Positions 26,873 to 46,320 of a DNA stretch of 64,000 bases are shown here, one piece after another. Position 1 is the stretch's first letter. Every line of letters begins with the position of its first letter. The notes under the pieces are model-generated. The model did not search any database and had not been told where the DNA came from. It saw only the letters and a program-made list of their open reading frames with translations. The stretch is from an uncultured Verrucomicrobiota bacterium (GTDB taxonomy: Bacteria > Verrucomicrobiota > Kiritimatiellia > CAIQIC01 > Lenti-01): the NCBI GenBank assembly GCA_937872095.1, contig CALMNW010000034.1, positions 20,107 to 84,106 of the forward strand, given 5' to 3'. A program made the translations under genes and the position numbers.

Positions 26873-27253
26873 TCGCAAAATGGGGGAAGTTCGGTCGCCG
26901 GCAGCTACATCTGCGATGGATGTGACCGGCCAGCCGCCGGCGATATTAAAAATTGCGCTCTAACCTCTCAGTAACATGGCCTATTCGCTTTGCGTGAAGA
27001 ATATCGCGGCCTTTGAAATTCGTATTGCTCTGTTGGCAATGAAGATAAGATGAAACATCTTGTCGTGTCCGAGCAATCGGCAGGGGGTGGACATTCGGGC
27101 AAGGGACCGGCATTAACACAATCATAACTATATTGTAACCATATATTAATCGTACACAGTTTGCGTATAAATATCTAAACGGCTACTTTCTTTTCATCTA
27201 ATAAGCAGGCGGCTGATTTTATCCGTCGCCTTTGGTGTTTTGTGGCAAAAACG
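26873..27253 (+). promoter_or_regulatory. AT-rich intergenic region upstream of the giant gene; the only break in coupling in the first 40 kb
   Basis: About 380 bp, with the stretch 27100-27200 below 35% GC inside a ~67% GC context (tataaatatctaaacggctactttcttttcatctaataagc). No convincing ORF. Promoter elements are not individually assignable. Confidence 0.3.
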
Positions 27254-36200: not shown

Positions 36201-39200
36201 GCGGAGCGGTCGCCGTGCTGGGGCCCTCGGGCCTTTCCCAGAACGCGCCGGCGACGGAATTGGGCGAGGCGTTCTATCGGACCATCCTGCAAGACGGGAT
36301 GGGCGAACTGGGCATGGCTTTTCTGCGCGCCCGCCGTTCGCTGCCCGCGAGCCTGTTCTCCAAAGACACGATCGCGGTCTACAATTTGCTTGGGGATCCG
36401 GCCCTGCGCATCGCGGGGAACGATCCGGCCGCCGCGGCGAAGCTTCCGGCCCAGATCTTCCTGCAAGACCTTGCGCAGACCTGCGACGGCACTCCGCGCG
36501 CCGTTTCGGCCGCGACGGAACCGGCTGGCCTGGCGGTGCGCATCACCTACGACGGCCATGCCGTGGCGCCGACGGCGGTCGGCTCCTATGCGGTGGTCGC
36601 GACGATCGCGACGGCCGATTACGAGGGAACCGCCGCGGGGACGCTGGTGGTCTCGAAGGCGGCAGCGGCGGTGTCGTTGACCGATCTCGAGCAGATCTAC
36701 GATGGTACGCCGAAGACGCCCGCCGCGACGACGGAACCGGCTGGTTTGGCCGTGGAATTCACGTACGACGGAGAGGCGACGCCGCCGACGGCGGCCGGCA
36801 CGTACGCCGTCGTCGCCACCGTGGCCGATGCCCAATGGGCGGGCGTGGCCACGGGCCTGCTGACGGTGGCCAAGGCGCCGGCGACGGTGCTGCTGGCCGG
36901 TCTGGCCCAAGTTTTCGACGAAACTCCGAGAATTGCGACAGCCACCACCGTGCCGGAAGGATTGTCCGTCGAAGTCCGCTACGACGGCTCGGAAACGCCT
37001 CCGGTCGGCGCCGGCAGCTACGTGGTCACGGCCGTGGTGGACGATCCCAACTTCGAAGGCATGGCCTCCGACGTGTTGACGGTATCCAAGGCCTCGGCGA
37101 CGGTCGTCTTGGGCAGTTTGGCCCAGACCTACGATGGCCGGCCCAAATACGCGACGGCGACCACCGCGCCCGGCGAACTGGCCGTCGATTTCACGTACGC
37201 CGGCTCGGCGCGAGCGCCCGTTGCCGCCGGCAGCTATGCCGTGGTTGGAACCGTGAGCGATCCCAACTGGCAGGGATCGGCTGCCGGGACGCTGGCCATC
37301 GGCAAGGCGGACCAGACGATCCAATTTGCCTCGATCGCCGACCAGATCACGACCGCCGCGGTCGAATTGTCCGCCACGGCGTCCAGCGGGCTGCCCGTGT
37401 CGTTCGCCGTCGTTTCCGGTCCGGCCGTTCTGCTGGGCGGAACAAGTCTTTCCTTCTCGGGTCCGGGGACGGTCGTCGTGGCCGCCCGGCAGGGCGGAAA
37501 CGAAAACTGGAATGCGGCTCCGGAAGCAACGCAAGTGTTCAACGTCGTGCCGGTCGTGCTGAGCAGCACCCGCGTTCTCGTGCGCGAAAACGGGGAGGGG
37601 CGTTTCTTCGTGAAGCTCTCGCAAGCCCCCGCCGCCAATACGACCGTCACGGTGGCCCGTTGCGCGGGCAGCGAAAGCCTTTCCGTGGCGAGCGGCGCCG
37701 AGTTGGTCTTCAAGGCGTCGAATTGGGATGCGTGGCAACCCGTGACGCTGGCCGCGGATCAAGATGCGAACGGCAGCGACGAGACGGCCACCTTCCGCGT
37801 GTCGACGGCCGGAGCGGCGGATCGGCAGTTGGAGGCCGTCGCGTTGGATGGCGACGCCGGAGAGAATCTGGCCTCGCCGGCGCGGGGAACCGCCATTTCC
37901 GGGACCCGCGGCTATTTCCTGCCGCTGGCGATCGACGGCATCCACGCGTCCCGCACCAATTACGCCTATACGATCTGGAGCAATCCGTCGCCCGGCACGA
38001 TGATTCTGGATTTGCAGGGAATCACGACGGTGTCGCGCCTGCGGTTGTTGAATTGGGATTGGAGTTTCCGTTCCCACCAATACATGCTGGAGTCGTCGGA
38101 GGACGGCGAAGATTGGTCTCTCCTGGTCGATGCCCGGTCGGGCGAGCATCGCGGCTGGGAAGACTGGGTGGTGGATGACACGCCGGCCCGGTATTTGCGC
38201 TTCACGGGGACGTCCAATTCCGCGAATACCGCCGTGTGCATTGCCGAATGGGAAGTGTATGGTCCCACCGGTTCGACCCCGCGGCCGGTTTGTTCGGCCG
38301 TCGACGTATCCGTCCGCGAAGCGGGCGAAGGCCGGTTCTTCGTGCGCCTGAACCAGGCGCCCGAGTCGAACGTCGTGGTCGGAGTGGCATGCGCCGCGGA
38401 ATCCGCCGGTCTGTCCGTGAAGAGCGGGCAAGCCTTGACCTTCAAGCCTTCGAACTGGAACGTTTGGCAGCCGGTCGTGCTCGCGGCGGAAGAAGACGCC
38501 AACGCCGAAGACGAGACGGCGTCGTTCCGCGTTTCGCTTTCGGGCGCGGCGGATCGCTACGTGAAGGCAACCGCGCTGGACGACGACATCGGGGAGAACG
38601 TGGCTCTGGCCTCGAGCGGGACTTCGATCTCGGGCTCGCGGGGCTATCTCTTGGGGGCGGCCATCGACGGAACGCACCTGTCGAGCACCAACTATGCCTT
38701 CGTGGTTTGGCCGGGCTCGATGACCCTGGATCTGCAAGGCGAGGTGGTCGTTTCGCGGGTACGGCTGTTGAACTGGGACTGGACCCTCCGGTCCCACCGC
38801 TATCGGATCGAGGCTTCGCTGGACGGCGCGAACTGGTCGGTGTTGGCGGATGCGAGCGAAGGCGAACACCGCGGTTGGGAAGATTGGCCGGTCGCCGACC
38901 AGCGGATTCGGTTCCTGCGGTTTACCGGCCTATACAATTCCGCGAATTCCGCCGTGTGCATCGCCGAATGGGAGGTCTACGGCACGCGCACGCAGCGGTC
39001 CGAACTGGAGGTGTCGGCAACGAACGTCAACGTGCGCGAGGCGGGTGAAGGTCGCTTCTTCGTGCGGCTGGATCGCGCTCCGGCGGGAGACGTCGCGGTC
39101 GCGGTGGCGCGCGTTTCGGGCGATTCGGCCATTTCGGCGGAAGACGGGGCGACGCTGACCTTCAAGCCGTCGAATTGGAACGTCTGGCAGGCCGTGACGC

Positions 39201-40120
39201 TGGTGGCGCAAGAGGATGAAAACGCCGCTGGCGAAACCGCGCTCTTCCGGATTTCGGCGCCGGACGCGCAGGATCGATTCGTGGAGGCCGCCACGCTGGA
39301 CGACGATATCGGCGAGAATCTGGCCTTGGCTTCTAACGGCGCCCGGATTTCCGGGACGCGGGCTTATTTGACGGCGCTGGCGATCGATGGGCAGCATCTG
39401 TCCCGCGCGAATTACGGCTACGCGGTCTGGACGAACGAACCGCCCGGGGCGATGACGCTGGATCTGGGCGCGGCGCGGTCCGTTGCGCGGGTGCGCCTGC
39501 TGAACTGGGACTGGAATTTGCGTTCTCACCGCTATCGGATCGAAACCTCGGAGGACGGGCTGGTTTGGTCGGTGCTGGCGGATGCGAGCACAGGCGAGCA
39601 CCACGGCTGGGAAGATTGGGCGGCAGACGGCCGCGCGATCCGCTATCTGCGCCTGACGGGCCTGTACAATTCCGCGAATTCCGCCGTCTGCATCGCCGAA
39701 TGGGAAGTGTACGGCGCGGCCCCGGCGGCAGCGGCCAGCGCGGCGGCGGTTAACGTCGTCGAGGATCCGTTCCCGCTGACGATCGTGACGAGCGACGACG
39801 GGCCGGACTACACCAACGGCTGGGCGGCCGTGGACGGCGATACGAATACCTGCTGGATTGGCCGGGCGGGCGCCGGCGGCTGGTACATCGCCGTCGGCTA
39901 CGACGCCGTCTGGCACATGACCAATCTCGTGGTGGATTTGGCCGAAGGTTCGGCGACGCAATTCCAATGCCTGCATAGCCTGGATGCCGTGAACTGGCAG
40001 GAGTGGCCGACGGAAAAGGATGAAGATTCCGTCGACATGAGCTATCTGTGGATTCTGTTCCCCGCCGATGGTCCGGCGGCCCCGGAACCCCGCGTGATTG
40101 AAATCCGGCCCCAGCAATGA
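27254..40120 (+). CDS. Giant secreted multidomain protein (about 4290 aa): signal peptide, ~16 SdrD-B/CnaB-like repeats, C25 (gingipain-like) cysteine peptidase domain, 4 MBG repeats, 3 near-identical discoidin-containing repeats plus a terminal discoidin domain
   Basis: Signal peptide MNIRSSWCSRQFLLVAALAVAGISGPARA|GNP; GTG at 27242 is an alternative start. Repeated GDxVWxDxNxDGxQ...GYYxFxNL units run to about 34 kb. C25 catalytic motifs NYVGHGS (His) and TLTCLAA (Cys) lie near 36.0-36.2 kb. MBG-like YDGTPK...AGTYAVVATV units lie at 36.45-37.3 kb. Three F5/8-type-C-like repeats end in CIAEWEVYG. A single 12.9-kb ORF. No PEP-CTERM tail. Confidence 0.85.
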   Translation: MNIRSSWCSRQFLLVAALAVAGISGPARAGNPDGDLRVEIVTAYNLVVDSNAESPSTYAPKSAYIGAKFCNDGTAPLTNVWAYIGDLAAGTPGTYPSRAHPGLVGPLPGGEFALTHEGGTMGATDATRYVGTIDPGECVTVYWLVSYPQLDENGDAVWGPSVKPDDDLWMEYDVWATAQQGAAYYQADDSQTLTCRNEISAMANKIWPNGANKVPQEYQDLLQQYVPLWTNTSAVAEPGAVLRTEGIWYDLGNVGDGFDNDGDLVPDRNAWLQPVGDPDIFDPSCFRMVRTYVMIIVKLNDGTEQVIVTEDQLYFTQIPANNRGAVGYVMYEFVAIGSGCVSTLTPYQEVASGFDNEKFNGDYGAPGQTLTGGTSLLAIAKSADPIVTRPGSNIAYTVTYTNSGPDPSGRPDIGLPVVVQDSIPTGTVYVAGSATAANVLPGGVSSYEVHYSTNHGLTWSLSEPAVATNVTDVQWWLSDPLPAGGAGTVRFTVKIANPWPFPSPIVPNTAGLSFGNTTPFMWAHAQTLLLGNNALGDTVWRDDGAGGGLLGNQLQEGGETGITGVTVRLYYDLDGDGTGDFLFATTNTGANGYYTFTNLPDGHFTVVVETTNSHIPFGYTPTTPTSFSIPLDPARTNVNPVVNWTADFGFAPALTLIKTHTSTNAVREGQLISYNLTVSNNLPGNGTGSGSPATYYAWASSGGADYKNTEWVNYSNAFYPPGPDGLYTSNQFAGPTTVLSLTNFTVGAQLGTVTNVSLVMPIQMVPPIGGDDTVTIEVRTLSPSTIRFSQTYLATSLVSGVWTVPRTGNYAWTWADFDSNAVVTLSAKKNSGGTAGGWILLDAVGFKIESDQTVGVAGDTTTLDPVPLVDRYDPAKLQFVSAQPPESSVETDPTGTIYWDNVGPIYPGGTSTVAVTFKLLEPPGNTNTVVTNTTWVTNAYFTGGAHANNATSSVVVTQFPAATVGDYVWRDLNGDGIQNETNMGIANVAVSITPPAGIDLGRGAGLAITNWTDASGYYLFESIPATGVYTVRVVTATLPGGIGTQTYDEDAVKDSTHAVYLDIYAAPASTNNLHLTTDFGYTLASAIEGTIWHDYDRGQESYREAGEDWMTNVTVYLCASPSPCGPGASIATNVTTTNGYFRFTGNFDGTYTVFVATNSGMLSNGSWHVSFDTDGTNTANYAAVTVPLGGVGRADFSYFRTGPYRIGDTLFYDWNGDGAQDVASEEGIPDVTVWLYEDANSNGVVDAATDALVATTVTTTNGYYVFTNLFATNTYLVMVDRADPDLPASCHVTADPWGALDARSVVTIVNADNFDQDFGFQPYGSGAIGDTVWLDRNADGIQLGTQEPGLPDVEVRLYVDFDGNGDYVLLRTTNTDANGLYLFDELPDGDYRVVVDDADADLPVDAYGNVYYPSTAVSFDVEISGGNTYLDADFGFAPYGAIGDTVFWDLNRNGDQDFNDPGVPGVDVYLYADANGNGIYDTGETLLATETTDATGFYVFSGLLPDDYVVVVETASGPLAGTDQTADPQSDGLACDDPLNVVPCDDQCGWSLAPAQIFMGADFGYAPRGVIGDTVWVDANDNGLRDAGELGIPYVDVILYSNGVAIATNTTDADGIYGFSGLVDFSNYGVRVATNDVDFPAGLTNTWTADGTFDNYTTNIVMSGGAVTSIGGYPCTDCDLNVDFGYRYAGNNSLSGTIGLDAPTYDGLMNDLNPSGPGPGESPYAGVPVTLYLWNDDGDGIIEAGETTQLGSTVTDANGDYAFTGLPNGDGDDKYVVASAAPESYLTLTTTNGSIAGVTVFSTTNLQGYAVSARLAVSVAPSITNMDFAYASQKSYDYGDLPDSYGTLLADGARHVVATVPDLYLGAGVDTESNGQPSAGADGDDLAGTDDEDGVVQLTNAIWTVGAAGGSVEVTVGAGSGWLLGYIDFNGDGDFVDAGEMIASQAVSATGGNGAGVYTNSFTIPAGTFSATSSTPLYARFRLFPEEPLFPELAYAGTAADGEVEDYLWHLAGLGDYVWYDVNGDGIQDVGEPPIVGVRVFLDLNDDGVWQAAEPAATTDADGLYGIGGLIAGTYVVRVDTNTLPVGVLPTYDYDGIGTLHVASVDVAQLDQFFDEADFGYLPPVDIGDRVWFDANRDGIQNAGETDNFIGIPVALLDSNGTIVAQTVTDDNGLYLFEDMPAQTYFLRFDLASISTNENVSTYKVGSDDEVDSDAIIGNVGDYAWTAAVVPVAGESLLTVDLGITTRGSTRADLAEVWGEWVDGQGRVAWRTAAEFGTAGFFVWRIDPASGEETRLNHLLVPSAFQEGGATYGLVDPAAREDEEGAYRIEEVELSGEIVGLGSRSVRFDAPAPAAKSTRDARVAKPIVQAVLPKASQGPSSVLKVQAETEGLYGVELQAIADGMGLALESVQALAEAGSLKITEQARTVPVSYDAARGRLLFHAKAPDRNWYSHADAYLISAGEGLAMPQREPDAAAGASVFPVTLHFEENLFLFNMNRMPDDFYFWVGVVSGTNDLLDPIFPLDLNGYAGGDMRLKVRLMGWSSTTNAPDHHAEFYFNGTLAGDVAFDGQDVAETEMTIPAGTISDGINELRVHGRMPEDQSHSFFVVDWVEASFDRQLAPGTIPAPFAAAGASSISAQAFAEPIALALDAAGNPTRIADESGGLPSRAWTVAPAEDRYEVLEANDVPLLVPKPAAADAWFLSETNAVDYLVIAPRELAPAAQELADYRAGQGLRSGVAVFEDVCDLLAGGVRTPEAISGLLRYAASTWAASPRMVLLAGSGHYDYLGVNTSEANHLPPLLVQMPVGVCASDALLADTGGDELPDVAIGRLPARTEAELAAMIAKIKAYEAEFGAEWQNQLVLVADNADPAGYFAAANERLAELVSAPYSVAERIELDTMDLDLARADLLGWFNSGAGFINYVGHGSIKTLAAENLLAATNVDEMVATDRPSVAVTLTCLAARYEVPAVESLGERLMQREQGGAVAVLGPSGLSQNAPATELGEAFYRTILQDGMGELGMAFLRARRSLPASLFSKDTIAVYNLLGDPALRIAGNDPAAAAKLPAQIFLQDLAQTCDGTPRAVSAATEPAGLAVRITYDGHAVAPTAVGSYAVVATIATADYEGTAAGTLVVSKAAAAVSLTDLEQIYDGTPKTPAATTEPAGLAVEFTYDGEATPPTAAGTYAVVATVADAQWAGVATGLLTVAKAPATVLLAGLAQVFDETPRIATATTVPEGLSVEVRYDGSETPPVGAGSYVVTAVVDDPNFEGMASDVLTVSKASATVVLGSLAQTYDGRPKYATATTAPGELAVDFTYAGSARAPVAAGSYAVVGTVSDPNWQGSAAGTLAIGKADQTIQFASIADQITTAAVELSATASSGLPVSFAVVSGPAVLLGGTSLSFSGPGTVVVAARQGGNENWNAAPEATQVFNVVPVVLSSTRVLVRENGEGRFFVKLSQAPAANTTVTVARCAGSESLSVASGAELVFKASNWDAWQPVTLAADQDANGSDETATFRVSTAGAADRQLEAVALDGDAGENLASPARGTAISGTRGYFLPLAIDGIHASRTNYAYTIWSNPSPGTMILDLQGITTVSRLRLLNWDWSFRSHQYMLESSEDGEDWSLLVDARSGEHRGWEDWVVDDTPARYLRFTGTSNSANTAVCIAEWEVYGPTGSTPRPVCSAVDVSVREAGEGRFFVRLNQAPESNVVVGVACAAESAGLSVKSGQALTFKPSNWNVWQPVVLAAEEDANAEDETASFRVSLSGAADRYVKATALDDDIGENVALASSGTSISGSRGYLLGAAIDGTHLSSTNYAFVVWPGSMTLDLQGEVVVSRVRLLNWDWTLRSHRYRIEASLDGANWSVLADASEGEHRGWEDWPVADQRIRFLRFTGLYNSANSAVCIAEWEVYGTRTQRSELEVSATNVNVREAGEGRFFVRLDRAPAGDVAVAVARVSGDSAISAEDGATLTFKPSNWNVWQAVTLVAQEDENAAGETALFRISAPDAQDRFVEAATLDDDIGENLALASNGARISGTRAYLTALAIDGQHLSRANYGYAVWTNEPPGAMTLDLGAARSVARVRLLNWDWNLRSHRYRIETSEDGLVWSVLADASTGEHHGWEDWAADGRAIRYLRLTGLYNSANSAVCIAEWEVYGAAPAAAASAAAVNVVEDPFPLTIVTSDDGPDYTNGWAAVDGDTNTCWIGRAGAGGWYIAVGYDAVWHMTNLVVDLAEGSATQFQCLHSLDAVNWQEWPTEKDEDSVDMSYLWILFPADGPAAPEPRVIEIRPQQ
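28858..33990 (+). repeat. Tandem array of ~16 diverged SdrD-B/CnaB-type (Ca-binding, carboxypeptidase-regulatory-like) domain repeats inside the giant gene
   Basis: Recurring protein motif G-D-[TY]-V-[WF]-x-D-x-N-x-[DN]-G-x-[QR]-[DN]...G-[YI]-Y-x-F-x-[NG]-L every ~100 aa. Diverged at nucleotide level. Confidence 0.6.
37552..39715 (+). repeat. Three tandem, highly similar ~725-nt repeats (each a beta-sandwich 'RFFV[KR]L' module plus a discoidin domain) inside the giant gene
   Basis: Repeat starts at about 37552, 38286 and 39006. Long identical nucleotide runs occur, for example tacaattccgcgaattccgccgt[cg]tgcatcgccgaatgggaagtgtacggc in copies 2 and 3. Protein copies are roughly 65-75% identical. 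Confidence 0.7.
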
Positions 40121-40184: not shown

Positions 40185-40601
40185 ATGACGGACAAGAAAC
40201 AGATGAAATACGAAAAACCCGTCAGCATCGACATGGGGCGCGTGGCGCCCATCCTCGGCGATACGTGCAGCATCGGAGACGGCGCGGCGGATTGTCCCGC
40301 CGGTATGAACAACGCCATCGTGGCGGTTTGTTCGCCTGCAGGCACCGGTGCGGACAACGATTGCCGCACGGGGTCCGGCGCCGGCACCTTTTGCTGGCCG
40401 ACCGGTTCCAATGCCCAGGTGTATTGCCTGGCGGGATCGGGCTTCGGCAGCAGTCCCGAGCCTTCCGGACTTACGATCCAGAGCGACTCCATCGACGCCG
40501 CGCCGGCCGCGACAAGTCTTTTCAGTCCCGAGCCGGATACCGGCACCGTGGAACCGACCGACGACAAGCCCGATGCTGGCGGCGGGACGGCATTCCCGTA
40601 A
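40185..40601 (+). CDS. Small Cys-rich protein (138 aa) with no Sec signal peptide; six regularly spaced Cys then a Pro/Ser/Ala/Gly/Asp-rich tail; candidate modified peptide/protein
   Basis: RBS aggaga 8 nt upstream of the ATG. Charged N-terminus MTDKKQMKYEKPVSIDMGRVAPILGD with no hydrophobic h-region. Cys at 28/37/49/60/70/81, spacing 9-12, each in a small-residue context (DTC, ADC, AVC, NDC, TFC, VYC). Low-complexity acidic tail. Confidence 0.5.
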   Translation: MTDKKQMKYEKPVSIDMGRVAPILGDTCSIGDGAADCPAGMNNAIVAVCSPAGTGADNDCRTGSGAGTFCWPTGSNAQVYCLAGSGFGSSPEPSGLTIQSDSIDAAPAATSLFSPEPDTGTVEPTDDKPDAGGGTAFP

Positions 40602-40616
40602 TCCGGCCGGCAGCCG

Positions 40617-41306
40617 GTGCGGAGATGCGCGGGGGATTCCGCGACCTGCGGTCCGAAGGATGCCGGGCCTATGTTGAATTCCGATATGTCAGCGGAGTCG
40701 TCCAGCCTATCCGGTACAAAACCCATTTGGTTGTCCCGTGTTTCCGCTCCTTGCCGCGGGGAGAGCATGTGGGGGACCTTGGAGGAAGGGGATTGCCTTT
40801 GGGTGATTCCCGTTTTGTTCGATGCCCTGCAACCCGGCGACGTCGTGGCGTTCGAATTCGGGGGTAAAGTCGTCGCCCACCGGATCGTAGGCCGGGAAGG
40901 CAATGGGTTCGCGACGCAGGGAGATGGCAATGACAATCGGGATTCCACGCCGCTGACCGCCGAGCGACTGATCGGCAAAGTGGTGGCACGGGAACGCAAG
41001 GGCGTTCGCAAAGCCGTGATCGGTGGGAATCGCGGCCGGCAGCGGGCGCGGATCTTGCGGTCCATCTGCTGGATTCGCCACTCCTCCGCGTTCTGGACGG
41101 TGCGCTTGCTTCGCACGCTGCCCGTCCGCCACGTTGTTTCCTGGTTATGGCGGCCGGTCATCCTTTCCGTTGGCTTTATGTCGCCGCAGGGGGGAATCAC
41201 CAAGTTCATCCATCAGGGACGGACCGTGGCCATCTGGAATCCGCAATCGCGGCGCTGGAACTGCCGAATGCCCTACGATTTGATTATATCCCCGCCGGTC
41301 CAATGA
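40617..41306 (+). CDS. S26-family signal-peptidase-I-like protein (SipW/ER-type, S26B-like) lacking the usual N-terminal membrane anchor
   Basis: GESMWGTL (Ser box), VVAHRIVG (His box) and QGDGNDNRDSTPL (GDNN-type box) occur in the canonical S26B order and spacing. No hydrophobic segment precedes the Ser box. The start is uncertain (possible internal Met). Confidence 0.5.
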   Translation: MRRCAGDSATCGPKDAGPMLNSDMSAESSSLSGTKPIWLSRVSAPCRGESMWGTLEEGDCLWVIPVLFDALQPGDVVAFEFGGKVVAHRIVGREGNGFATQGDGNDNRDSTPLTAERLIGKVVARERKGVRKAVIGGNRGRQRARILRSICWIRHSSAFWTVRLLRTLPVRHVVSWLWRPVILSVGFMSPQGGITKFIHQGRTVAIWNPQSRRWNCRMPYDLIISPPVQ

Positions 41307-42544
41307 ATAGCGAACGCGCCACGGATTCCGGTTGCGAGATGGATTTGCTGTGCGATTGCATCGCGCCGAATCGATCCGCGTCGCTCAAGGGGGACCTGCT
41401 CCGCACGCGGTCGGTGGATTGGCCGCGGTTTTTCGCGCTGGCCACCAACCACCACGTGATCCCGTTGGTCTACCAAGCCTTGAAATCCATGGCGGACGGC
41501 GGAGCGGCCATTCCTCCCGAATGGCTGGCCCAGTTTCGAACGCGATATCTGTCCATTGCCGCGTACAACGTCCGGGCCATGGCCCTGCTGCACCGGCTCC
41601 AGCAACTCATGGAAGCGCAGGGCATCCGGCTCGTTCCCGTCAAAGGTCCTGCTTTGGCGATGTTGGCTTTTGGAGACGTCGCATCGCGGCAGTTCGAGGA
41701 TTTGGATCTCATCGTGCGTCGGGAAGACATGTTGCGCGCCGTTGCGGCACTGGAGCGGGACGGCTACGCGTTGCGAGAGCTCTCGATCACGGCCGACCGA
41801 AAACGCTATCTGGCCACGCTGCAGAACTGGTCGTTGGAAAAACCGGGAAAACCACCGCTGGATCTCAAGCCGGTTCTGATTTCCCATGCGCTGATCGGTC
41901 CGGAATCGGCGGACTACATGGCTTCCGCTTGCCGCCGGCTGCCGATCGACGACAAGCGCGTTCTTTGGGCGCCCGGTCCCGAAGCCATGTTGCTGGCGAC
42001 GTGCATGGATGGGGCGAACGAAATGTGGTTCAAGCTGTCGGCGGTGGCCGACGTGGCCGCATTGTTGGCGGCGCATGCGGATCGGGATTGGCACGGATTT
42101 CTCGCCGAAGCGGCGCGCTGGGGACAACGGAGAAGCCTGCTGGTCGGCGCTGGCGTGGCGGAAGAACTGCTCGGGTGCGACTTGCCCTCGGCGTTCCGGG
42201 AAGGGGATCGTCGCGATCCGGCGGCGCGGCGTCTGGCGCGGCAAGCGGCGGAACGCCTGCGGGCGCTGGCTCCCCGCCATGCGATCGTCGGCCGGCAAAC
42301 CTGGTTCGCGCTCCAAACCCGGGAACGGGCGCGCGACCGCTTGCGTTTTGGACAGCGCCTGCTGTTTGTTCCAGGCGCGTTTGAACTCGCGGCCTTGCCG
42401 TTGCCGGGCGTGCTCTATCCCGTGCATTCGCTGTTGCGTCCCTTCCGCTTGGCCTGGGACGTGCTTGTGCGGAAAGGCCGGCAGCGCCGGTTGACGATTC
42501 AGCCGACAGGTGGGAAATTGATGGGTAACGCGAAAGACGCATGA
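41303..42544 (+). CDS. Nucleotidyltransferase-family protein (resembles the 'uncharacterised nucleotidyltransferase' PF14907 family seen in RiPP/lasso-peptide clusters)
   Basis: ATGA overlap with the peptidase-like gene. Core IRLVPVKGPALAMLAFGDVASRQFEDLDLIVRREDMLRAVAALERDGY shows the K-G...R-x-x-x-D-L-D-L-[LI]-V...G-Y pattern of the family. Confidence 0.45.
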   Translation: MNSERATDSGCEMDLLCDCIAPNRSASLKGDLLRTRSVDWPRFFALATNHHVIPLVYQALKSMADGGAAIPPEWLAQFRTRYLSIAAYNVRAMALLHRLQQLMEAQGIRLVPVKGPALAMLAFGDVASRQFEDLDLIVRREDMLRAVAALERDGYALRELSITADRKRYLATLQNWSLEKPGKPPLDLKPVLISHALIGPESADYMASACRRLPIDDKRVLWAPGPEAMLLATCMDGANEMWFKLSAVADVAALLAAHADRDWHGFLAEAARWGQRRSLLVGAGVAEELLGCDLPSAFREGDRRDPAARRLARQAAERLRALAPRHAIVGRQTWFALQTRERARDRLRFGQRLLFVPGAFELAALPLPGVLYPVHSLLRPFRLAWDVLVRKGRQRRLTIQPTGGKLMGNAKDA

Positions 42545-44331
42545 AACCCGAGAACAAGCGATTGTTGCATCTGTGCCAGGCCGTCGGATTGGTCTGGGAG
42601 AGCGCGCGGGGCTGGACGTTGCTCCAAGGCGCGGCGGTCATGGCGCAAGGCTTGTTGCCCATCGCCACGCTCTATTTGACGCGGCGCGTGGTCGATGCCG
42701 TCGGCCAGTTTCTGGCGCAACCTGCGGGCCAGAAAGATCCCTTGCCGCTTTTTACGCTGTTGCCCTGGGTGGCGGGCGTGGCGGTGGCGGGCTGGATTTT
42801 CCGCGCGTGGTCGAACGTGGTGGCCGAGGCGCAGGCCGATGCGGTTTCGGACCACGTGCAGGGCGCGCTGCAGAAAAAATCCACCGAGATCGATATCGCC
42901 TATTACGAGACGTCGACCTACCACAACCAGATGCGCATGGCGCAATCGGAGGCCATGTCGCGGCCCGTGAGTATCGTTCGGAACCTGGCGCAATTGGGAA
43001 GCGGCGCGCTGGTGTTGGGATCGGTAACCGGCGTGTTGTGGCTGTCGCAGGGGTTTTTGCTGCCCGTATTGCTGGCGGCGGCGTTGCCTGGCGCCTTGGC
43101 GCGGGTCCGGAATTCCCGCCAATGGCATGGCTGGCGGGTTCGGCACAGCGAACCGGAGCGACAAGCCGGCTATTTGCACCTGTTGCTGACGTCGTTTCCG
43201 TTCGCGAAAGAAATCCGTCTGCTGGGAACCGGCGGTGAATTGCGCCGGCGGTTCGCGGCCTTGCGCGGCAGTCTTCGCCGGAGCCGATTGGGATTCGTGC
43301 GGCGGCGCGCCGGCACGGAGATCGTGGCCGACGTCGTTTCCGCCTGCGTCGTTCTCGTCGGCCTGGGGCTCATTTATCTGCGGATGGCGGGCAACCGGAT
43401 GACGCTGGGGGACTTGGCCTTGCTCTACGGTGGATTTCAAAAGGGCAAGACGGCCTTCTCGTCGGTCTTGGGCAGTTTGGCCGCGCTCTATGAAGATTCG
43501 CTGTTCATTTCCCATTTCTACGACTTTCTGGGGCTGCCGCAGCGGGTCCATTCGCCGGCCGTGCCCCGGCCGCTTCCGCAACGGATCGAGCAGGGAATTC
43601 GGTTGGAGCACGTCACCTTCCGGTATCCGGGCTGCGCGACGGATGCGCTGAAAGACGTCACGGCGGAAATCCGGGTGGGGGAACATGTGGCGCTGGTCGG
43701 AGAAAACGGATCCGGCAAGACGACGCTCGTGAAATTGCTGTGCCGCCTGTACGACCCCACCGAAGGCCGGGTTCTGCTGGATGGCATCGACATCCGCGAA
43801 TATGCGCTGGAGGATCTGCGCGGCCTGTTCAGCGTCCTGTTCCAGGATTTCGTCCGATATCAGATGACGGCCGAGGAAAACGTCCGCATGGGCCATCTGG
43901 CGGTCCCGCCGGGCGATCCGAGGATTGCCGAAGCCGTTCGCCGGGCCGGAGCCGTTCCCGTGATCGAGCGCTTGCCCCAGGGAAGCCAGACGCCGTTGGG
44001 GAGGCTTTTCAAGGACGGGATGGAACTGAGCGAAGGGCAGTGGCAACGGATGGCGTTGGCCCGGGCTTTCTTGCGGCCGGGACCCATTCTGATGCTGGAC
44101 GAGCCAACCAGTTCCCTGGATGCCAAGGCGGAGCGGGATCTGCTGGAGTCGGTCGCCGCCGGGTTCCAGGGGAAAACCGTCGTGGTGGTCAGCCATCGGC
44201 TTTCGACCGTCCGGATGGCCGATCGCATCTGGGTGTTGTCCGACGGGCGCTTGGTGGAGTCGGGCGGCCACGATGCGTTGGTGCGGGCCGGGGGCGACTA
44301 TGCCCGACTGTTCGCTTTGCGCGCAACATGA
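42541..44331 (+). CDS. ABC exporter, fused permease and ATP-binding protein (type I exporter; no N-terminal C39 peptidase domain)
   Basis: ATGA overlap. Six-helix TMD followed by Walker A GENGSGKTT, signature LSEGQWQRMALARA and Walker B ILMLDEPTSSLD. Confidence 0.85.
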   Translation: MKPENKRLLHLCQAVGLVWESARGWTLLQGAAVMAQGLLPIATLYLTRRVVDAVGQFLAQPAGQKDPLPLFTLLPWVAGVAVAGWIFRAWSNVVAEAQADAVSDHVQGALQKKSTEIDIAYYETSTYHNQMRMAQSEAMSRPVSIVRNLAQLGSGALVLGSVTGVLWLSQGFLLPVLLAAALPGALARVRNSRQWHGWRVRHSEPERQAGYLHLLLTSFPFAKEIRLLGTGGELRRRFAALRGSLRRSRLGFVRRRAGTEIVADVVSACVVLVGLGLIYLRMAGNRMTLGDLALLYGGFQKGKTAFSSVLGSLAALYEDSLFISHFYDFLGLPQRVHSPAVPRPLPQRIEQGIRLEHVTFRYPGCATDALKDVTAEIRVGEHVALVGENGSGKTTLVKLLCRLYDPTEGRVLLDGIDIREYALEDLRGLFSVLFQDFVRYQMTAEENVRMGHLAVPPGDPRIAEAVRRAGAVPVIERLPQGSQTPLGRLFKDGMELSEGQWQRMALARAFLRPGPILMLDEPTSSLDAKAERDLLESVAAGFQGKTVVVVSHRLSTVRMADRIWVLSDGRLVESGGHDALVRAGGDYARLFALRAT

Positions 44332-44347
44332 AGAGGTCCATTTGATT

Positions 44348-45748
44348 ATGGCCTCCAAACGCCATTTTAATGTGCCGCGGATTGACAGGCAACGGGGAAG
44401 GGTATCAAATGCCGTAATGCGCCCGGTTATACAAAAAGTGCGTAGAGCGGGGATTTATGCCCTTCTATGCTTTGCGGTTCCCGCTTTTGGGGGGCCGGGC
44501 AACGGCATCAACGTTGCCTCGTGGGTGCTGAGTCCCTATCTGGAGTTGAATCTGACCCATGATTCGAACGTCTACAAGGACGGCACGAACGTGATTTCCG
44601 ACGCCTTTTTCGAGCCGGAACTGGGGGTGAGGTTCAGTTCTTCGGCAGAAACCAACACCTTCCTGATCAAGGGCAATCTGTACGTGTCGGATCGGACCTA
44701 CGACACGGAAAGCAACCGCGATTTCATGACGTATGGGGATCACCTGACCTTGCAATTGGGGAACGGGCGCAAATCCCTGTTCGAATTGATCCAGAGCTAT
44801 CGCTTTTTGGACGACAACGACCGGCATGCGTCGGACGTCGAAACGTCCCGCCTTTCCGGCGAAATGGTGGAAGACAGCAACGCGCTGGATCTGGAGCGCG
44901 AACTGCACCAGTTGGGGGCTTCGCTTTCGCGCCGCATGTCGGACAAATTGCATCTGGCGCTGTCCTATCGTTATTCCGGCGTCCATTACCCGAACAAGAC
45001 CCACGAGCGTTTGGCCCGCAAGCAGGAAGAATACGTGCCGGAAGGATTGGATCTGGACGGGCACATCTGGCAATTGGAAGGCGCGCTGGGATTGACGGAT
45101 AAAACCGACGTCATGCTGACGCTGCGCCAGGGCTTGCAGTACCAGGAAAAAACGGATGAGCCCGCCGAACTGACGACGCTACGGCTGGGGTTGCAGACGC
45201 AAGGCGCCCAAAAACTGGTGTACCACGTCGGGGTCGGCTTGGAATACTATGCGCGCCCGTCCCAGACGCAGTTCGACGAGGCGGACGTCGACGAAAGCGA
45301 CGTCCAGGTCGATGAAGAGGGCGTCCGCAGCGACAACGACCAGATTACGTTCAACTACAATGCGGCGGCGGACTGGTTCATCACGGAAAAATTGACCTTC
45401 CGCATCGGCGGCTACAACGGCACGGAATTCTCCTCGTTCTACGAGCAAAACGGCATGGAATTCATCAGCGCTTGGGCCGGGGTGGGATACCGCTGGAAGC
45501 CCAGCTGGATCTTTTCCCTGCGCGGGATTTATCGCTACGACGACTATCTGGACCCGGTCACGCACGAAGGCATTACCTTGGATCGCAAGGACACGCGCGT
45601 CGAAGGCCATGGGCGCATCGACTACATCGCGTCGGGCAATTTCCTCCGGATCTATTTGGAGGCGGTCTACGACGAAGTGGATTCCAATTTCGACTTCGTG
45701 GATTATGTCGATGAGCGCCTCATCCTCGGCGCCCTCATCCAGTACTAG
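44348..45748 (+). CDS. Probable outer-membrane beta-barrel protein
   Basis: Alternating amphipathic beta-strand pattern throughout. C-terminal aromatic residue (...LILGALIQY). A signal-peptide-like segment MRPVIQKVRRAGIYALLCFAVPAFG begins at 44417 and may be the true start. A TTGACA-containing promoter-like stretch lies at ~44387. Confidence 0.5.
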   Translation: MASKRHFNVPRIDRQRGRVSNAVMRPVIQKVRRAGIYALLCFAVPAFGGPGNGINVASWVLSPYLELNLTHDSNVYKDGTNVISDAFFEPELGVRFSSSAETNTFLIKGNLYVSDRTYDTESNRDFMTYGDHLTLQLGNGRKSLFELIQSYRFLDDNDRHASDVETSRLSGEMVEDSNALDLERELHQLGASLSRRMSDKLHLALSYRYSGVHYPNKTHERLARKQEEYVPEGLDLDGHIWQLEGALGLTDKTDVMLTLRQGLQYQEKTDEPAELTTLRLGLQTQGAQKLVYHVGVGLEYYARPSQTQFDEADVDESDVQVDEEGVRSDNDQITFNYNAAADWFITEKLTFRIGGYNGTEFSSFYEQNGMEFISAWAGVGYRWKPSWIFSLRGIYRYDDYLDPVTHEGITLDRKDTRVEGHGRIDYIASGNFLRIYLEAVYDEVDSNFDFVDYVDERLILGALIQY

Positions 45749-45759
45749 GAGGCGAAAAC

Positions 45760-46320
45760 ATGAATGCAAATTGGATCAAATGGACGGCGCTGGCGGTTTG
45801 CCTGTCCGGCCTGAACGCACAGGCGGCATTCGATCGGCCGACGCGGGCGGAACTCAAGGCCGCGGCGGAGGATCTTTCGAAGGTGGTCGAATTGCTGCAG
45901 GATGCCTCGATCGACCAGGCGGCGGAAACCGCCAAGGACGTGGTGATCGAAATCGTCAAACTGGATCTGGACCGCGTCGAGCGCGACAGTCGGTCTTCGT
46001 CTCTGGTCGGATACCTGTTCATGACCGTGCAGCGAGACGACTGGAAAGCGTTGGCGATCTCGTTCGGCCGCATGGTGGCGGCCAGTCCGACGGCCAGCAT
46101 GGATCCCTCGTTGCTGTCGGCGCTTCAGCGCGCGATCATCGAGGTGTGCGGGGTGGAGGTCGCGAGCGAATTCGGGAATGCCTACAATCTAGCCATGTTG
46201 ACGATCGCCGGAGCGCCCGGCGGCGGCAAGAACGTGCCGCCCCAGCCGCCGCCGCCGCCCGTGGCGTTGCCGTTGCGTCCGCCCGTGGCGACGCTCTACG
46301 AAGGGCAGCAACTGCCGTAG
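45760..46320 (+). CDS. Secreted hypothetical protein with a Pro-rich C-terminus
   Basis: Signal peptide MNANWIKWTALAVCLSGLNAQA|AF. RBS aggagg 7 nt upstream. 186 aa. No recognisable domain. Confidence 0.45.
   Translation: MNANWIKWTALAVCLSGLNAQAAFDRPTRAELKAAAEDLSKVVELLQDASIDQAAETAKDVVIEIVKLDLDRVERDSRSSSLVGYLFMTVQRDDWKALAISFGRMVAASPTASMDPSLLSALQRAIIEVCGVEVASEFGNAYNLAMLTIAGAPGGGKNVPPQPPPPPVALPLRPPVATLYEGQQLP

What the first reader, a model, noticed from the sequence alone, without database searches (positions are those of the whole stretch)
40185..44331. Downstream module of peptide-associated genes: Cys-rich small protein, TM-less S26 peptidase, PF14907-like nucleotidyltransferase and ABC exporter. 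Possible second half of a split RiPP-like system
Directly after the giant gene come five tightly linked genes, three with ATGA overlaps. The first is a leader-like 138-aa protein with six spaced Cys and no signal peptide. The second is an S26/SipW-like peptidase with Ser/His boxes and no membrane anchor, so it is unlikely to be a Sec signal peptidase and may act as a leader peptidase. The third is a nucleotidyltransferase of the family that accompanies HPr-kinase homologues in lasso-peptide clusters. The fourth is a peptidase-domain-less ABC exporter. An OM beta-barrel follows. Combined with the rSAM/PqqD/kinase operon 13 kb upstream, the window contains every functional class of a RiPP pathway (precursor, recognition, modification, tailoring, proteolysis, export) but split around a 12.9-kb gene. 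The split could mean the giant gene was inserted into a pre-existing cluster. Alternatively the module may process the giant protein itself.
Basis: inference. Interest (0 to 1): 0.8.

Follow-up and report, generated by a model that had tools for sequence, protein, structure and literature searches.

The report
Split radical-SAM peptide gene cluster
The genes after the giant gene encode the precursor peptide, a soluble signal-peptidase-like protease, a tailoring enzyme and an exporter of an uncharacterised radical-SAM peptide pathway whose modifying enzymes lie 13 kb upstream; a giant surface-protein gene was inserted between the two halves in this bacterial lineage.

Summary
40185-44331 holds a 138-aa six-Cys protein (A), an anchorless Sec11/SipW-type S26 peptidase (B), a PF14907 nucleotidyltransferase (C) and an ABC exporter without a C39 domain (D). 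A BBP2_2 barrel (E) and a small secreted protein (F) follow.

The upstream operon (23129-26872) is a SynChlorMet (SCM)-type cassette: ScmE, ScmD, ScmF and ScmC. ScmC has an HPr-kinase fold.

Among 46 non-redundant loci with an A homologue:
- 31 have a giant adhesin-type gene directly upstream of A.
- 12 have Scm genes directly upstream of A and no giant gene.
- 3 have no recognised gene there.

In Desulfobacterales-type loci A lies between ScmF and ScmD.

A is the only ScmA-like ORF in the window. It has an invariant KYEKPVSIDMGRV-P-LG leader and repeated C-x2-3-G-x2-A-x2-4 units.

The giant gene is therefore a Kiritimatiellia-lineage insertion into one cluster. It lacks the leader and the Cys-repeat motif, so it is not an evident substrate.

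In every lineage where flanking genes could be read, the system sits inside an exopolysaccharide locus.

The chemistry is inferred, not shown. I rate this a new variant of a computationally known, experimentally uncharacterised system.

The parts
23129..24553 (+). ScmE-like enzyme: an N-terminal PqqD (peptide-recognition) domain fused to a radical SAM/SPASM maturase
   Evidence: TIGR04250 390.2 bits (cutoff 400). Pfam PqqD, Radical_SAM and SPASM hits. CNLRCAYC motif intact. ATGA overlap with the upstream CapD-like gene.
24550..25125 (+). ScmD-like stand-alone recognition protein (winged helix plus PqqD)
   Evidence: PqqD 53 bits. TIGR04248 42 bits (cutoff 100). ATGA overlap with ScmE.
25122..26297 (+). 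ScmF-like second radical SAM/SPASM maturase
   Evidence: TIGR04251 335.3 bits (cutoff 400). Radical_SAM and SPASM hits. CNLCCRHC motif intact. The start is inferred from a GTGA overlap.
26294..26872 (+). ScmC-like P-loop kinase with an HPr-kinase fold
   Evidence: The window's own protein (P0106) carries PF27840 'ScmC'. Walker A sequence GHSTAGKST. AF2 model pLDDT 85.7; the top PDB fold matches are HprK/P, E 1.4e-5.
26873..27241 (.). AT-rich 369-bp intergenic region upstream of the giant gene. It is the probable promoter region for the giant gene and the genes after it.
   Evidence: Sequence. A stretch is conserved with the equivalent region of L006. The promoter role is inferred, not shown.
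27242..40120 (+). Giant secreted surface protein (4292 aa) that interrupts the cluster. It is a lineage-specific insertion, not a pathway component.
   Evidence: 10 SdrD_B, 4 MBG_3, Peptidase_C25 (231 bits), 3 F5/8 type C, DUF11 and GEVED domains. It is absent from 12 of 46 non-redundant loci. It has no leader or Cys-repeat motif.
40185..40601 (+). A: ScmA-like precursor peptide. It has a leader of about residues 1-25, a six-Cys repeat core (residues 26-88) and a variable Ser/Pro/Glu-rich tail.
   Evidence: Alignments A3, A4 and A9. 140 homologues, none annotated. 125 representative clusters in the wider superfamily. Transitive link to TIGR04252 ScmA. It is the only such ORF in the window. Purifying selection.
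40671..41306 (+). B: soluble Sec11/SipW-type S26 serine peptidase with a family-specific C-terminal domain of about 115 aa. It is the candidate leader peptidase.
   Evidence: GxSM is present in all 31 loci examined. Ser, His and Asp are invariant. There is no TM segment.
41303..42544 (+). C: PF14907 nucleotidyltransferase-fold tailoring enzyme
   Evidence: PF14907 159 bits. K114-G115 and D133-x-D135 are invariant. AF2 model pLDDT 85.8; fold matches are MenT1, ANT(2''), LnuA, TglT and FKRP.
42541..44331 (+). D: half-size ABC exporter (transmembrane domain plus ATPase domain) without a C39 peptidase domain
   Evidence: ABC_tran 108 bits. MsbA-like match over residues 106-593. No C39 hit. 596 aa.
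44417..45748 (+). E: outer-membrane beta-barrel (BBP2_2) with a signal peptide. It probably belongs to the exopolysaccharide export machinery and may also serve peptide export.
   Evidence: PF10082 28.2 bits. In outgroup loci, BBP2_2 barrels sit just before Poly_export and GNVR/Wzc genes.
45760..46320 (+). F: small secreted protein (186 aa) conserved at the end of the block in Kiritimatiellia-type loci
   Evidence: Present in 17 of the 24 non-redundant Kiritimatiellia-type loci, plus L041, L051; the others end or show no hit before that position. No Pfam hit. Conserved C-terminus GAPGGGK.VPPQPPPPPVALP..YEGQ.

Best explanation
Genes 40185-44331 and the operon at 23129-26872 are two halves of one SCM-type radical-SAM peptide (RiPP-like) pathway. 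In the Kiritimatiellia lineage a giant adhesin/C25-peptidase gene was inserted between them.

**Proposed mechanism** (inferred unless marked as shown)
1. A is the precursor. Shown: it is a conserved coding family with an invariant leader, (K/R)YEKPVSIDMGRV-P-LG, and a core of repeated C-x2-3-G-x2-A-x2-4 units.
2. The leader is bound by the PqqD-type recognition domains of ScmD and of the ScmE N-terminus.
3. The two radical SAM/SPASM enzymes, ScmE and ScmF, modify the six Cys units. The most likely product is a set of Cys-derived thioether cross-links to the invariant neighbouring residues.
4. ScmC, which has an HPr-kinase fold (shown by model), phosphorylates a Ser or Thr. The PF14907 enzyme C then adds a nucleotide- or sugar-phosphate-derived group. 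The precedent is PsmK/PsmN in the lasso peptide pseudomycoidin.
5. The soluble Sec11/SipW-type peptidase B removes the leader in the cytoplasm. The plausible site is after the invariant ...P-(I/V)-L-G, which fits the small -1 and aliphatic -3 rule of type I signal peptidases.
6. The ABC exporter D exports the product.

The whole system is nested inside an exopolysaccharide locus. E, and perhaps F, belong to that cell-envelope context.
For: **Components identified**
- SCM-type enzymes upstream.
- ScmC carries PF27840 and has an HprK/P fold.
- B has an invariant Ser/His/Asp set aligned to SEC11A/C and no TM segment.
- C is PF14907 with an intact G...DxD motif and a nucleotidyltransferase fold.
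- D lacks a C39 domain.

**Linkage of the two halves**
- A, B, C and D co-occur with ScmC/D/E/F in every lineage sampled, with shuffled gene order. In L024, L027, L030 and L031, A sits between ScmF and ScmD.
- 12 non-redundant loci are contiguous without a giant gene.
- A is the only ScmA-like ORF in the 64-kb window.

**A as the precursor**
- The leader is nearly invariant across phyla. The number of Cys units varies from 2 to about 20 across 125 representative clusters.
- A superfamily member, P0388, matches the ScmA precursor model TIGR04252 at E 0.0021.
- A is under purifying selection.

**Polarity of the insertion**
- NJ tree.

**Kinase and nucleotidyltransferase partnership**
- More distant PF14907 homologues sit with ScmC/HprK-like kinases, PqqD and ABC genes in lasso-type clusters.
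- PsmK phosphorylates the C-terminal Ser of pseudomycoidin and PsmN adds hexoses to it (PMC9266682).
Against: - No product, modification, cleavage or export has been observed, and no paper on the SCM cassette was found.
- The window's Scm proteins all score below the NCBIfam equivalog cutoffs. A does not match TIGR04252 directly.
- The type of cross-link is a guess.
- PadeK and PsmK act on a C-terminal Ser, whereas A-family C-termini are not conserved. The kinase target is therefore unknown.
- No S26 enzyme appears as a RiPP leader peptidase in the 2023 review, so B's role has no precedent within RiPPs.
- In L032 a giant gene and A (the contig ends ~300 bp after A, within the S26-like gene) sit next to unrelated housekeeping genes, with no Scm genes in the 10 kb upstream.
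- In 31 of 46 loci the giant gene is retained 55-105 bp upstream of A. That persistence could reflect a functional tie not captured by this explanation.
Confidence: 0.72

Rival explanations
1. The A-F module is functionally tied to the giant protein. For example, B would process it, D/E would help secrete or anchor it, or A would be a partner or chaperone-like subunit. On this view its proximity to the SCM operon is secondary.
For: - In 31 of 46 non-redundant loci a giant SdrD_B/MBG_3/F5_F8_type_C gene ends 55-105 bp before A on the same strand.
- In L032 a giant gene and A are found without Scm genes in the 10 kb upstream.
- No terminator-like site lies between the giant gene and A.
Against: - A, B, C and D exist with Scm genes and no giant gene in 12 loci from several lineages, and A is interleaved with the Scm genes in four of them.
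- The giant protein has its own Sec-type N-terminus and no YEKP leader or Cys-repeat motif.
- Giant-gene content varies widely (2171-4292 aa, different domain sets) while A-F stay conserved.
- B has no membrane anchor or signal peptide, so it cannot meet a secreted protein outside the cell.
Confidence: 0.1
2. The SCM-type system, including A-D, is not a stand-alone secreted natural-product pathway. It is instead a dedicated accessory of exopolysaccharide biogenesis. The modified and phospho-/glyco-tailored peptide would act as a primer, anchor or regulator of the polymer, and E would be part of the polysaccharide export route.
For: The system is embedded in exopolysaccharide (EPS) genes in every lineage where flanks are visible.
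- Window, L005 and L006: CapD-like gene overlapping ScmE, preceded in the window and L006 by DegT, Bac_transf and an XrtA-type deacetylase.
- L027, L030 and L031: Bac_transf upstream; BBP2_2, Poly_export and GNVR/Wzc downstream.
- L025: LytR_cpsA_psr, BBP2_2 and Poly_export.
- L028: GT4, CapD and UDP-glucose dehydrogenase.
- The lasso-type relatives with ScmC-like kinase and PF14907 also sit beside Poly_export, Wzy and Wzz genes.
- The PF14907 fold resembles phospho-alcohol and nucleotidyl transferases, including FKRP.
Against: - The evidence is co-localisation only.
- No glycosyltransferase has been shown to act on a peptide here.
- RiPP clusters are often found in genomic islands next to unrelated loci.
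- A dedicated ABC exporter fits a freely secreted peptide equally well.
Confidence: 0.25
3. A is not modified at all. It would be a small Cys-rich metal- or Fe-S-binding protein, and B a LexA/S24-like self-cleaving regulator, so the gene neighbourhood would be coincidental.
For: - A has six invariant Cys with regular spacing, which could bind metal.
- B scores weakly on Peptidase_S24 (17.9 bits).
Against: - The neighbourhood is conserved across phyla with gene shuffling.
- The number of Cys units varies from 2 to about 20 while the leader stays fixed. This is typical of a leader/core precursor and not of a folded metalloprotein.
- B has His, not the Lys of LexA/S24, at the general-base position and aligns best to SEC11.
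- B has no DNA-binding domain hit.
Confidence: 0.03

Closest known systems
SynChlorMet (SCM) cassette of TIGRFAMs/NCBIfam: ScmA TIGR04252, ScmC TIGR04249/PF27840, ScmD TIGR04248, ScmE TIGR04250, ScmF TIGR04251
   Same: - Two radical SAM/SPASM proteins, a PqqD-family protein and an ScmC P-loop protein are all best-hit by the Scm models. ScmC orthologues carry PF27840.
- The precursor has a YEKP-type leader followed by Cys-containing units. A superfamily member matches ScmA.
   Different: - All window proteins score below the equivalog cutoffs: 390/400, 335/400, 42/100 and 31/125.
- A is 138 aa against a 49-position ScmA model and does not hit that model directly.
- The system here also always carries an S26-like peptidase, PF14907 and an ABC exporter, and lies inside EPS loci.
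- In this lineage it is split by a 12.9-kb gene.
- The SCM cassette has no experimental literature in the searched library.
Phosphorylated/glycosylated lasso peptide clusters (paeninodin PadeK; pseudomycoidin PsmK/PsmN)
   Same: - A PqqD-type recognition element, an HPr-kinase-like kinase, a nucleotidyltransferase-like tailoring enzyme and an ABC exporter act on a ribosomal peptide (PMC9266682).
- Distant homologues of C sit in exactly such clusters.
- The A leader has a Y-x-x-P...G pattern that recalls the lasso leader motif. This last point rests on my own knowledge and was not tested.
   Different: - There is no lasso cyclase (Asn_synthase) or B2 transglutaminase protease among the cluster genes.
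- Two radical SAM/SPASM enzymes and an S26-like peptidase take their place.
- The kinase target cannot be a conserved C-terminal Ser, because A-family C-termini vary.
Sactipeptide/ranthipeptide-type radical SAM RiPPs (for example subtilosin AlbA, freyrasin PapB, SCIFF)
   Same: - Cys-rich precursors with a leader recognised by a PqqD-like domain.
- SPASM-domain radical SAM maturases. AlbA, StsB and PapB models give secondary hits to ScmE/F.
   Different: - The hits are far below cutoff.
- The repeat unit C-x2-3-G-x2-A-x2-4 matches none of those NCBIfam precursor models.
- The chemistry is unknown.
- Two maturases, a kinase and a nucleotidyltransferase are present.
Anchorless cytoplasmic S26 peptidases such as the NiSOD maturation protease SodX (TIGR02754), and ER/archaeal-type Sec11/SipW
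   Same: - The Ser/His(/Asp) catalytic boxes align with SEC11A/C.
- There is a weak hit to TIGR02754 (E 0.0026).
- Like SodX it lacks a membrane anchor, so it would remove an N-terminal propeptide in the cytoplasm. The biology of SodX is from my own knowledge.
   Different: - It scores below every curated cutoff.
- It carries a conserved C-terminal domain of about 115 aa of unknown fold.
- It is genomically tied to a RiPP-like precursor, not to SodN or to Sec substrates.

Membership tests
SynChlorMet (SCM) cassette | ScmE radical SAM/SPASM protein reaching the TIGR04250 equivalog cutoff | tested here: inconclusive
   390.2 bits against a cutoff of 400. It is the best hit by a wide margin; the next family scores 134 bits.
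SynChlorMet (SCM) cassette | ScmF radical SAM/SPASM protein reaching the TIGR04251 cutoff | tested here: not met
   335.3 bits against a cutoff of 400. It is the best hit; the next family scores 125 bits.
SynChlorMet (SCM) cassette | ScmD PqqD-family protein (TIGR04248) and ScmC protein (TIGR04249 / PF27840) | tested here: inconclusive
   ScmD scores 42 bits against a cutoff of 100, and ScmC 30.6 against 125, on NCBIfam. However, the window's own ScmC protein (P0106) and its orthologues carry Pfam PF27840 'ScmC' in the precomputed annotation.
SynChlorMet (SCM) cassette | ScmA precursor (TIGR04252, 49 positions, cutoff 35) | tested here: not met
   Window A gives no hit. Of its 24-member family, 2 hit at E >= 1.7. 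The link is transitive only: P0388 matches the A profile at E 1.2e-8 and ScmA at E 0.0021.
RiPP biosynthetic cluster (general) | A short precursor with a conserved leader and variable core, co-localised with a PqqD-type recognition element and modifying enzymes | tested here: met
   Leader invariance and a variable number of repeats. Conserved neighbourhood with PqqD/rSAM genes across lineages.
RiPP biosynthetic cluster (general) | Demonstrated post-translational modification and leader removal | not testable with these tools
   Requires expression and mass spectrometry.
Peptidase S26 (type I signal peptidase), Sec11/SipW subtype | Catalytic Ser in a GxSM box, His in an HR box, Asp in a GDxN..D box | tested here: met
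   S15, H53 and D68 are invariant, and D74 is conserved in at least 90% of 16 sequences. They align with the SEC11A/C boxes at E 1.7e-9. GxSM was found in all 31 loci examined.
Peptidase S26 (type I signal peptidase), Sec11/SipW subtype | A membrane anchor that places the active site outside the cytoplasmic membrane, and a score above the curated cutoff | tested here: not met
   No 19-residue window exceeds a Kyte-Doolittle score of 1.42. TIGR02228 scores 41.1 against 51.85, and PF00717 17.9 against 23.3.
PF14907 NTP_transf_5 | Full-length match above the gathering score, with an intact nucleotidyltransferase G...DxD motif | tested here: met
   159.4 bits against 31.2, covering profile positions 2-249 of 249. 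K114, G115, D133 and D135 are invariant in 20 sequences. Nucleotidyltransferase fold matches.
Lasso peptide cluster | Asn-synthase-like lasso cyclase and transglutaminase-like B2 protease | tested here: not met
   None of the cluster genes at 23129-26872 or 40185-46320 hits PF00733 or PF13471. Those domains are present in the distant loci L034 and L035.
Peptidase-containing ABC transporter (PCAT, bacteriocin exporter) | N-terminal C39 peptidase domain | tested here: not met
   D is 596 aa with no Peptidase_C39 hit. The bacteriocin-type models align only over the ATPase half.
HPr kinase/phosphorylase-like kinases | P-loop kinase fold of the HprK/P C-terminal domain | tested here: met
   AF2 model pLDDT 85.7. 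The top 12 Foldseek PDB hits are HprK/P, E 1.4e-5 to 1.5e-4, but TM-scores are only about 0.4. A sequence profile search finds only generic Walker A matches.

The most novel reading that the evidence does not exclude
The SCM-type peptide is a built-in component of exopolysaccharide biogenesis, not a free antibiotic-like product. A radical-SAM cross-linked peptide would be phosphorylated by ScmC, decorated by the PF14907 enzyme, released by a cytoplasmic S26 peptidase and exported. It would then prime, anchor or regulate the polymer made by the surrounding locus, in effect a bacterial 'peptidoglycan-free proteoglycan' module. In Kiritimatiellia a giant lectin-domain adhesin gene has been recruited into the same transcription unit.
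Probability: 0.2. Interest if true: 0.85.

Novelty: new variant of a known kind. Interest (0 to 1): 0.58.

Why it matters
The SCM cassette is defined only by curated models. I found no experimental paper on it.

This analysis gives it a fuller parts list:
- An enlarged, repeat-built precursor family that current Pfam and NCBIfam models miss. All 140 homologues lack a functional name (unnamed or 'hypothetical protein').
- A soluble Sec11/SipW-type S26 peptidase as candidate leader peptidase. That protease family is absent from a 2023 review of RiPP leader proteases.
- A kinase plus PF14907 tailoring pair, shared with phospho-glycosylated lasso peptides.
- A dedicated ABC exporter.

It also shows that cluster finders which require contiguity would miss the system in most Kiritimatiellia, because a 6-13 kb adhesin gene splits it.

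The system is repeatedly embedded in exopolysaccharide loci of unrelated phyla. This raises a testable link between ribosomal peptide modification and cell-surface polymer production.

The precursor and enzymes are small enough for heterologous co-expression and mass spectrometry.

Tried and rejected
- **Literature.** 'SynChlorMet' returned 0 papers. TIGR/Scm identifiers returned only unrelated single-cell software. PF14907 had no occurrence among the top-ranked papers. A combined search for HPr kinase, radical SAM, PqqD, nucleotidyltransferase and exopolysaccharide returned 0 papers.
- **ScmC sequence search.** A PDB sequence search with the ScmC profile gave only generic Walker A matches. 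The kinase fold had to be tested through a model instead.
- **Promoter and terminator scans.** Scans around the giant/A and ScmC/giant junctions found nothing above the shuffled expectation.
- **RNA scans.** Rfam and tRNA scans of the window found nothing.
- **Intergenic alignment.** Aligning the ScmC-to-giant and ScmC-to-A intergenic regions showed conservation only between the window and L006. No recognisable deletion scar was seen in L005.
- **F versus outgroup proteins.** Homology between F and the 200-250-aa proteins that follow the ABC gene in outgroups was not supported (E 0.19).
- **Giant protein as substrate.** Rejected: it has no leader or repeat motif.
- **A second precursor near the Scm operon.** Rejected: there is only one A/ScmA-like ORF in 64 kb.
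- **Not done.** The structure of B and its C-terminal domain could not be predicted with an alignment, because its homologues were not eligible input. The founding SCM genomes (Syntrophobacter, Chlorobium, Methanocella) could not be fetched.

Full report
**1. The observation**

The window is 63% GC, and third-position GC singles out one coding frame per gene. Six + strand genes follow the giant ORF (27242-40120).

- **A (40185-40601).** 138 aa, with AGGAGA 8 nt before the ATG. Cys at positions 28, 37, 49, 60, 70 and 81. No hydrophobic N-terminus.
- **B.** The ORF starts at 40617, but the start conserved among orthologues is the ATG at 40671 ('ML.S.MS'), ending at 41306.
- **C (41303-42544).** PF14907, 159 bits.
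- **D (42541-44331).** A 596-aa ABC exporter without a C39 peptidase domain.
- **E (44417-45748).** A BBP2_2 barrel with a signal peptide.
- **F (45760-46320).** A 186-aa secreted protein.

B/C and C/D overlap by ATGA, as do CapD/ScmE, ScmE/ScmD and ScmF/ScmC upstream.

**2. Identity of the parts**

*B.* It scores below the curated thresholds for S26/S24 models. A profile of 16 orthologues from several phyla finds human SEC11A and SEC11C as the best solved relatives (E 1.7e-9 and 3.6e-9). The alignment covers the GSM, HR and GDxN..D boxes. Ser, His and the first Asp are invariant. Gene callers often start the gene at the Met of the 'SM' box, but the in-frame upstream sequence keeps 'PCRGxSM'. 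GxSM is present in all 31 loci examined. No 19-residue window exceeds a Kyte-Doolittle score of 1.42, so there is no membrane anchor. The last 115 residues or so are conserved but match nothing.

*C.* K114-G115 and D133-x-D135 are invariant. An AF2 model (pLDDT 85.8) resembles MenT1, ANT(2''), LnuA and TglT, and more weakly the ribitol-phosphate transferase FKRP.

*The upstream operon.* It is an SCM-type cassette.

| Gene | Coordinates | Description | NCBIfam model | Bits | Cutoff |
|---|---|---|---|---|---|
| ScmE | 23129-24553 | PqqD domain fused to radical SAM/SPASM | TIGR04250 | 390 | 400 |
| ScmD | 24550-25125 | PqqD-family protein | TIGR04248 | 42 | 100 |
| ScmF | 25122-26297 | radical SAM/SPASM | TIGR04251 | 335 | 400 |
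| ScmC | 26294-26872 | P-loop protein | TIGR04249 | 30.6 | 125 |

Both radical SAM proteins keep the CX3CX2C motif. ScmC carries Pfam PF27840 'ScmC' in the precomputed annotation. Its AF2 model (pLDDT 85.7) is closest to HPr kinase/phosphorylase.

*The giant protein.* It has 10 SdrD_B, 4 MBG_3, one strong Peptidase_C25, 3 F5/8 type C, DUF11 and GEVED domains.

*Upstream of the SCM operon.* The region 47-23132 is a long exopolysaccharide locus. It holds glycosyltransferases, Wzy_C, an acyltransferase, an ATP-grasp enzyme, an XrtA-type deacetylase, Bac_transf, DegT and a CapD-like gene.

**3. Synteny, the decisive test**

Orthologues of C (44-73% identity) come from Kiritimatiellia-type MAGs. 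In three long contigs the order is giant gene, A, B, C, D, E, F, and the genes after F differ between contigs. ScmC orthologues lie on the same contigs, with ten matching contig lengths. L006 shows that L002's contig has the same layout as the window: EPS genes, ScmE/D/F/C, then the giant gene.

The 13.7-kb contig L005 has CapD, ScmE, ScmD, ScmF, ScmC, A, B, C, D, E, F with no giant gene.

I then scanned species-representative genomes and JGI metagenomes with the A alignment and mapped all window proteins onto the 61 loci by tblastn. The counts for non-redundant loci are:

| Gene directly upstream of A | Loci |
|---|---|
| Giant-type gene | 31 |
| Scm genes, no giant gene | 12 |
| Nothing recognised | 3 |

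- In Desulfobacterales-type loci (L024, L027, L030, L031) the order is PF14907, ScmE, ScmF, A, ScmD, ScmC, S26-like, ABC.
- In L025 the order is ScmE, ScmD, ScmF, ScmC, A, S26-like, ABC, PF14907.

Membership is kept while gene order is shuffled. That is the signature of a functional unit.

An NJ tree of C+D places the outgroups included (L027, L030, L031), which lack the giant gene, outside the Kiritimatiellia clade. It places L005 next to the giant-bearing L019. The simplest history is one insertion in the Kiritimatiellia lineage and at least one later loss.

One exception is L032. There a 2171-aa giant gene and A follow housekeeping genes, with no Scm gene in the 10 kb upstream. Whether that genome keeps the Scm genes elsewhere is unknown.

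**4. The precursor**

A has 140 homologues, none with a functional name (unnamed or 'hypothetical protein') and none with a Pfam domain.

- The first 25 residues are almost invariant from Kiritimatiellia to Desulfobacterales: (K/R)YEKPVSIDMGRV-P-LG.
- The core keeps six Cys within repeated C-x2-3-G-x2-A-x2-4 units.
- One member has a seventh unit.
- The Ser/Pro/Glu-rich tail is present in most Kiritimatiellia-type genes and is dispensable, since 88-aa forms exist.
- Nucleotide differences fall mostly on third codon positions, 179/92/498.

A full HMMER search of 1.84 billion representatives finds 125 clusters. Nearly all are 58-140 aa, with the same leader and 2 to about 20 repeat units.

NCBIfam holds a 49-position precursor model, TIGR04252 'ScmA'. 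The window's A does not match it. The superfamily member P0388 does (E 0.0021) and also matches the A profile at E 1.2e-8. A is therefore a divergent, enlarged ScmA-type precursor.

It is the only such ORF in the 64-kb window. The giant protein has neither the leader nor the repeat motif.

**5. Mechanism**

What is shown:
- the identities of the parts;
- their conserved linkage;
- intact catalytic motifs.

What is inferred:
- PqqD domains bind the leader.
- ScmE and ScmF act on the Cys units. Thioether cross-links are the most likely product, by analogy with other Cys-directed SPASM enzymes.
- ScmC phosphorylates a Ser or Thr, and the PF14907 enzyme extends it. In pseudomycoidin, PsmK phosphorylates the C-terminal Ser and the nucleotidyltransferase-like PsmN adds one or two hexoses to it (PMC9266682).
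- More distant homologues of C sit with ScmC/HprK-like kinases, PqqD, Asn_synthase, Transglut_core3 and ABC genes in lasso-type clusters. The kinase/PF14907 pairing is therefore general.
- B would remove the leader in the cytoplasm. The invariant P-(I/V)-L-G before the first Cys fits the -3/-1 rule of type I signal peptidases. This is my inference.
- D would export the product.

A 2023 review of RiPP leader proteases mentions no S26 enzyme. The nearest functional analogue I know of is the anchorless NiSOD maturation protease, to which B gives a weak hit (TIGR02754).

**6. Context**

The system lies inside exopolysaccharide loci in every lineage with visible flanks.

- L027, L030, L031: Bac_transf upstream; a BBP2_2 barrel, Poly_export and GNVR/Wzc downstream.
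- L025: LytR_cpsA_psr, BBP2_2 and Poly_export.
- L028: GT4, CapD and UDP-glucose dehydrogenase.
- Window, L005, L006: the CapD-like gene overlaps ScmE.

The lasso-type relatives also sit beside Poly_export, Wzy and Wzz genes. E is therefore more likely part of the polysaccharide export apparatus than a dedicated peptide channel. A functional tie between the peptide and the polymer is an open and interesting possibility.

**7. Verdict**

The alternative, that the module processes the giant protein, is not supported.

The system is a new variant of a computationally defined but experimentally uncharacterised family. The chemistry, the kinase target, the cleavage site and the biological role remain untested.

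Noticed in passing
window 47-23132: A long exopolysaccharide biosynthesis locus precedes the SCM operon. It includes GT2/GT4 glycosyltransferases, Wzy_C, Acyl_transf_3, hexapeptide transferase, ATP-grasp, a VimE-like deacetylase, an XrtA-type DUF3473 deacetylase, Bac_transf, DegT, VanZ and CapD-like Polysacc_synt_2. Several large ORFs have no family hit (4703-5920, 11881-13725, 16196-17974).
   Followed up: partly
window 46623-~59000: Directly after F lies a lower-GC block. It holds a tyrosine integrase (46623-48065), a Toprim-like 859-aa protein, a DNA pol III beta-like protein, a PD-(D/E)XK nuclease and DUF932. It looks like an integrated mobile element. No tRNA gene is present anywhere in the window.
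   Followed up: partly
L028 12032-18124 (minus strand): This 'uncultured bacterium' locus carries a second, divergent SCM-like set facing the first. It comprises an S26-like peptidase, an ABC exporter, a 223-aa ScmC-like P-loop protein and two radical SAM/SPASM genes. There are also two PF14907 genes on the plus strand.
   Followed up: partly
L034 and L035: Lasso-type clusters (PqqD, Asn_synthase, Transglut_core3, ScmC/HprK-like kinase, sulfotransferases, PF14907, ABC) also lie next to Poly_export, Wzy_C and Wzz/GNVR genes. The link between kinase/PF14907-tailored peptides and exopolysaccharide loci is therefore not limited to the SCM type.
   Followed up: no
L032 1-10563: This is an exception to the usual layout. 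A shorter giant gene (2171 aa; CARDB, MBG_3, F5_F8_type_C) and an 88-aa tail-less A follow acetyltransferase, DTW, thioesterase and NAD synthase genes. No Scm gene lies in the 10 kb upstream.
   Followed up: partly
P0465 (265 aa) and other hits: The precursor superfamily includes a 265-aa member with about 20 consecutive G-N-x-A-x3-C units. Other members have only two units. The repeat number is highly plastic behind a fixed leader.
   Followed up: no
window 45760-46320; L002 14363-14896; L005 12466-12999: The small secreted protein F ends in a strongly conserved motif, GAPGGGK.VPPQPPPPPVALP..YEGQ. It matches no family and could be a sorting or interaction signal.
   Followed up: no
L005 3549-3932 and 5735-6133: In the giant-less contig, two small extra genes sit between the Scm genes: a 23S_rRNA_IVP/bAvd-type four-helix-bundle gene and a PDDEXK_3 gene.
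   Followed up: no
window 27090-27200 and L006 ~10700-10790: A stretch of the AT-rich region upstream of the giant gene is conserved between the window and L006 (CATTAA..AATC.TAAC ... TTAAT.GTACA..GTTTG..ATAA.T). It may be a promoter or regulatory site. The sigma-70 scan did not flag it on the + strand.
   Followed up: partly
window 40671-41306, residues ~95-211 of B: The C-terminal half of the S26-like peptidase is conserved across phyla (W143, P145, C181, P184, D186 in A5 numbering) but matches nothing in the PDB by sequence. It could be the substrate-binding domain.
   Followed up: no
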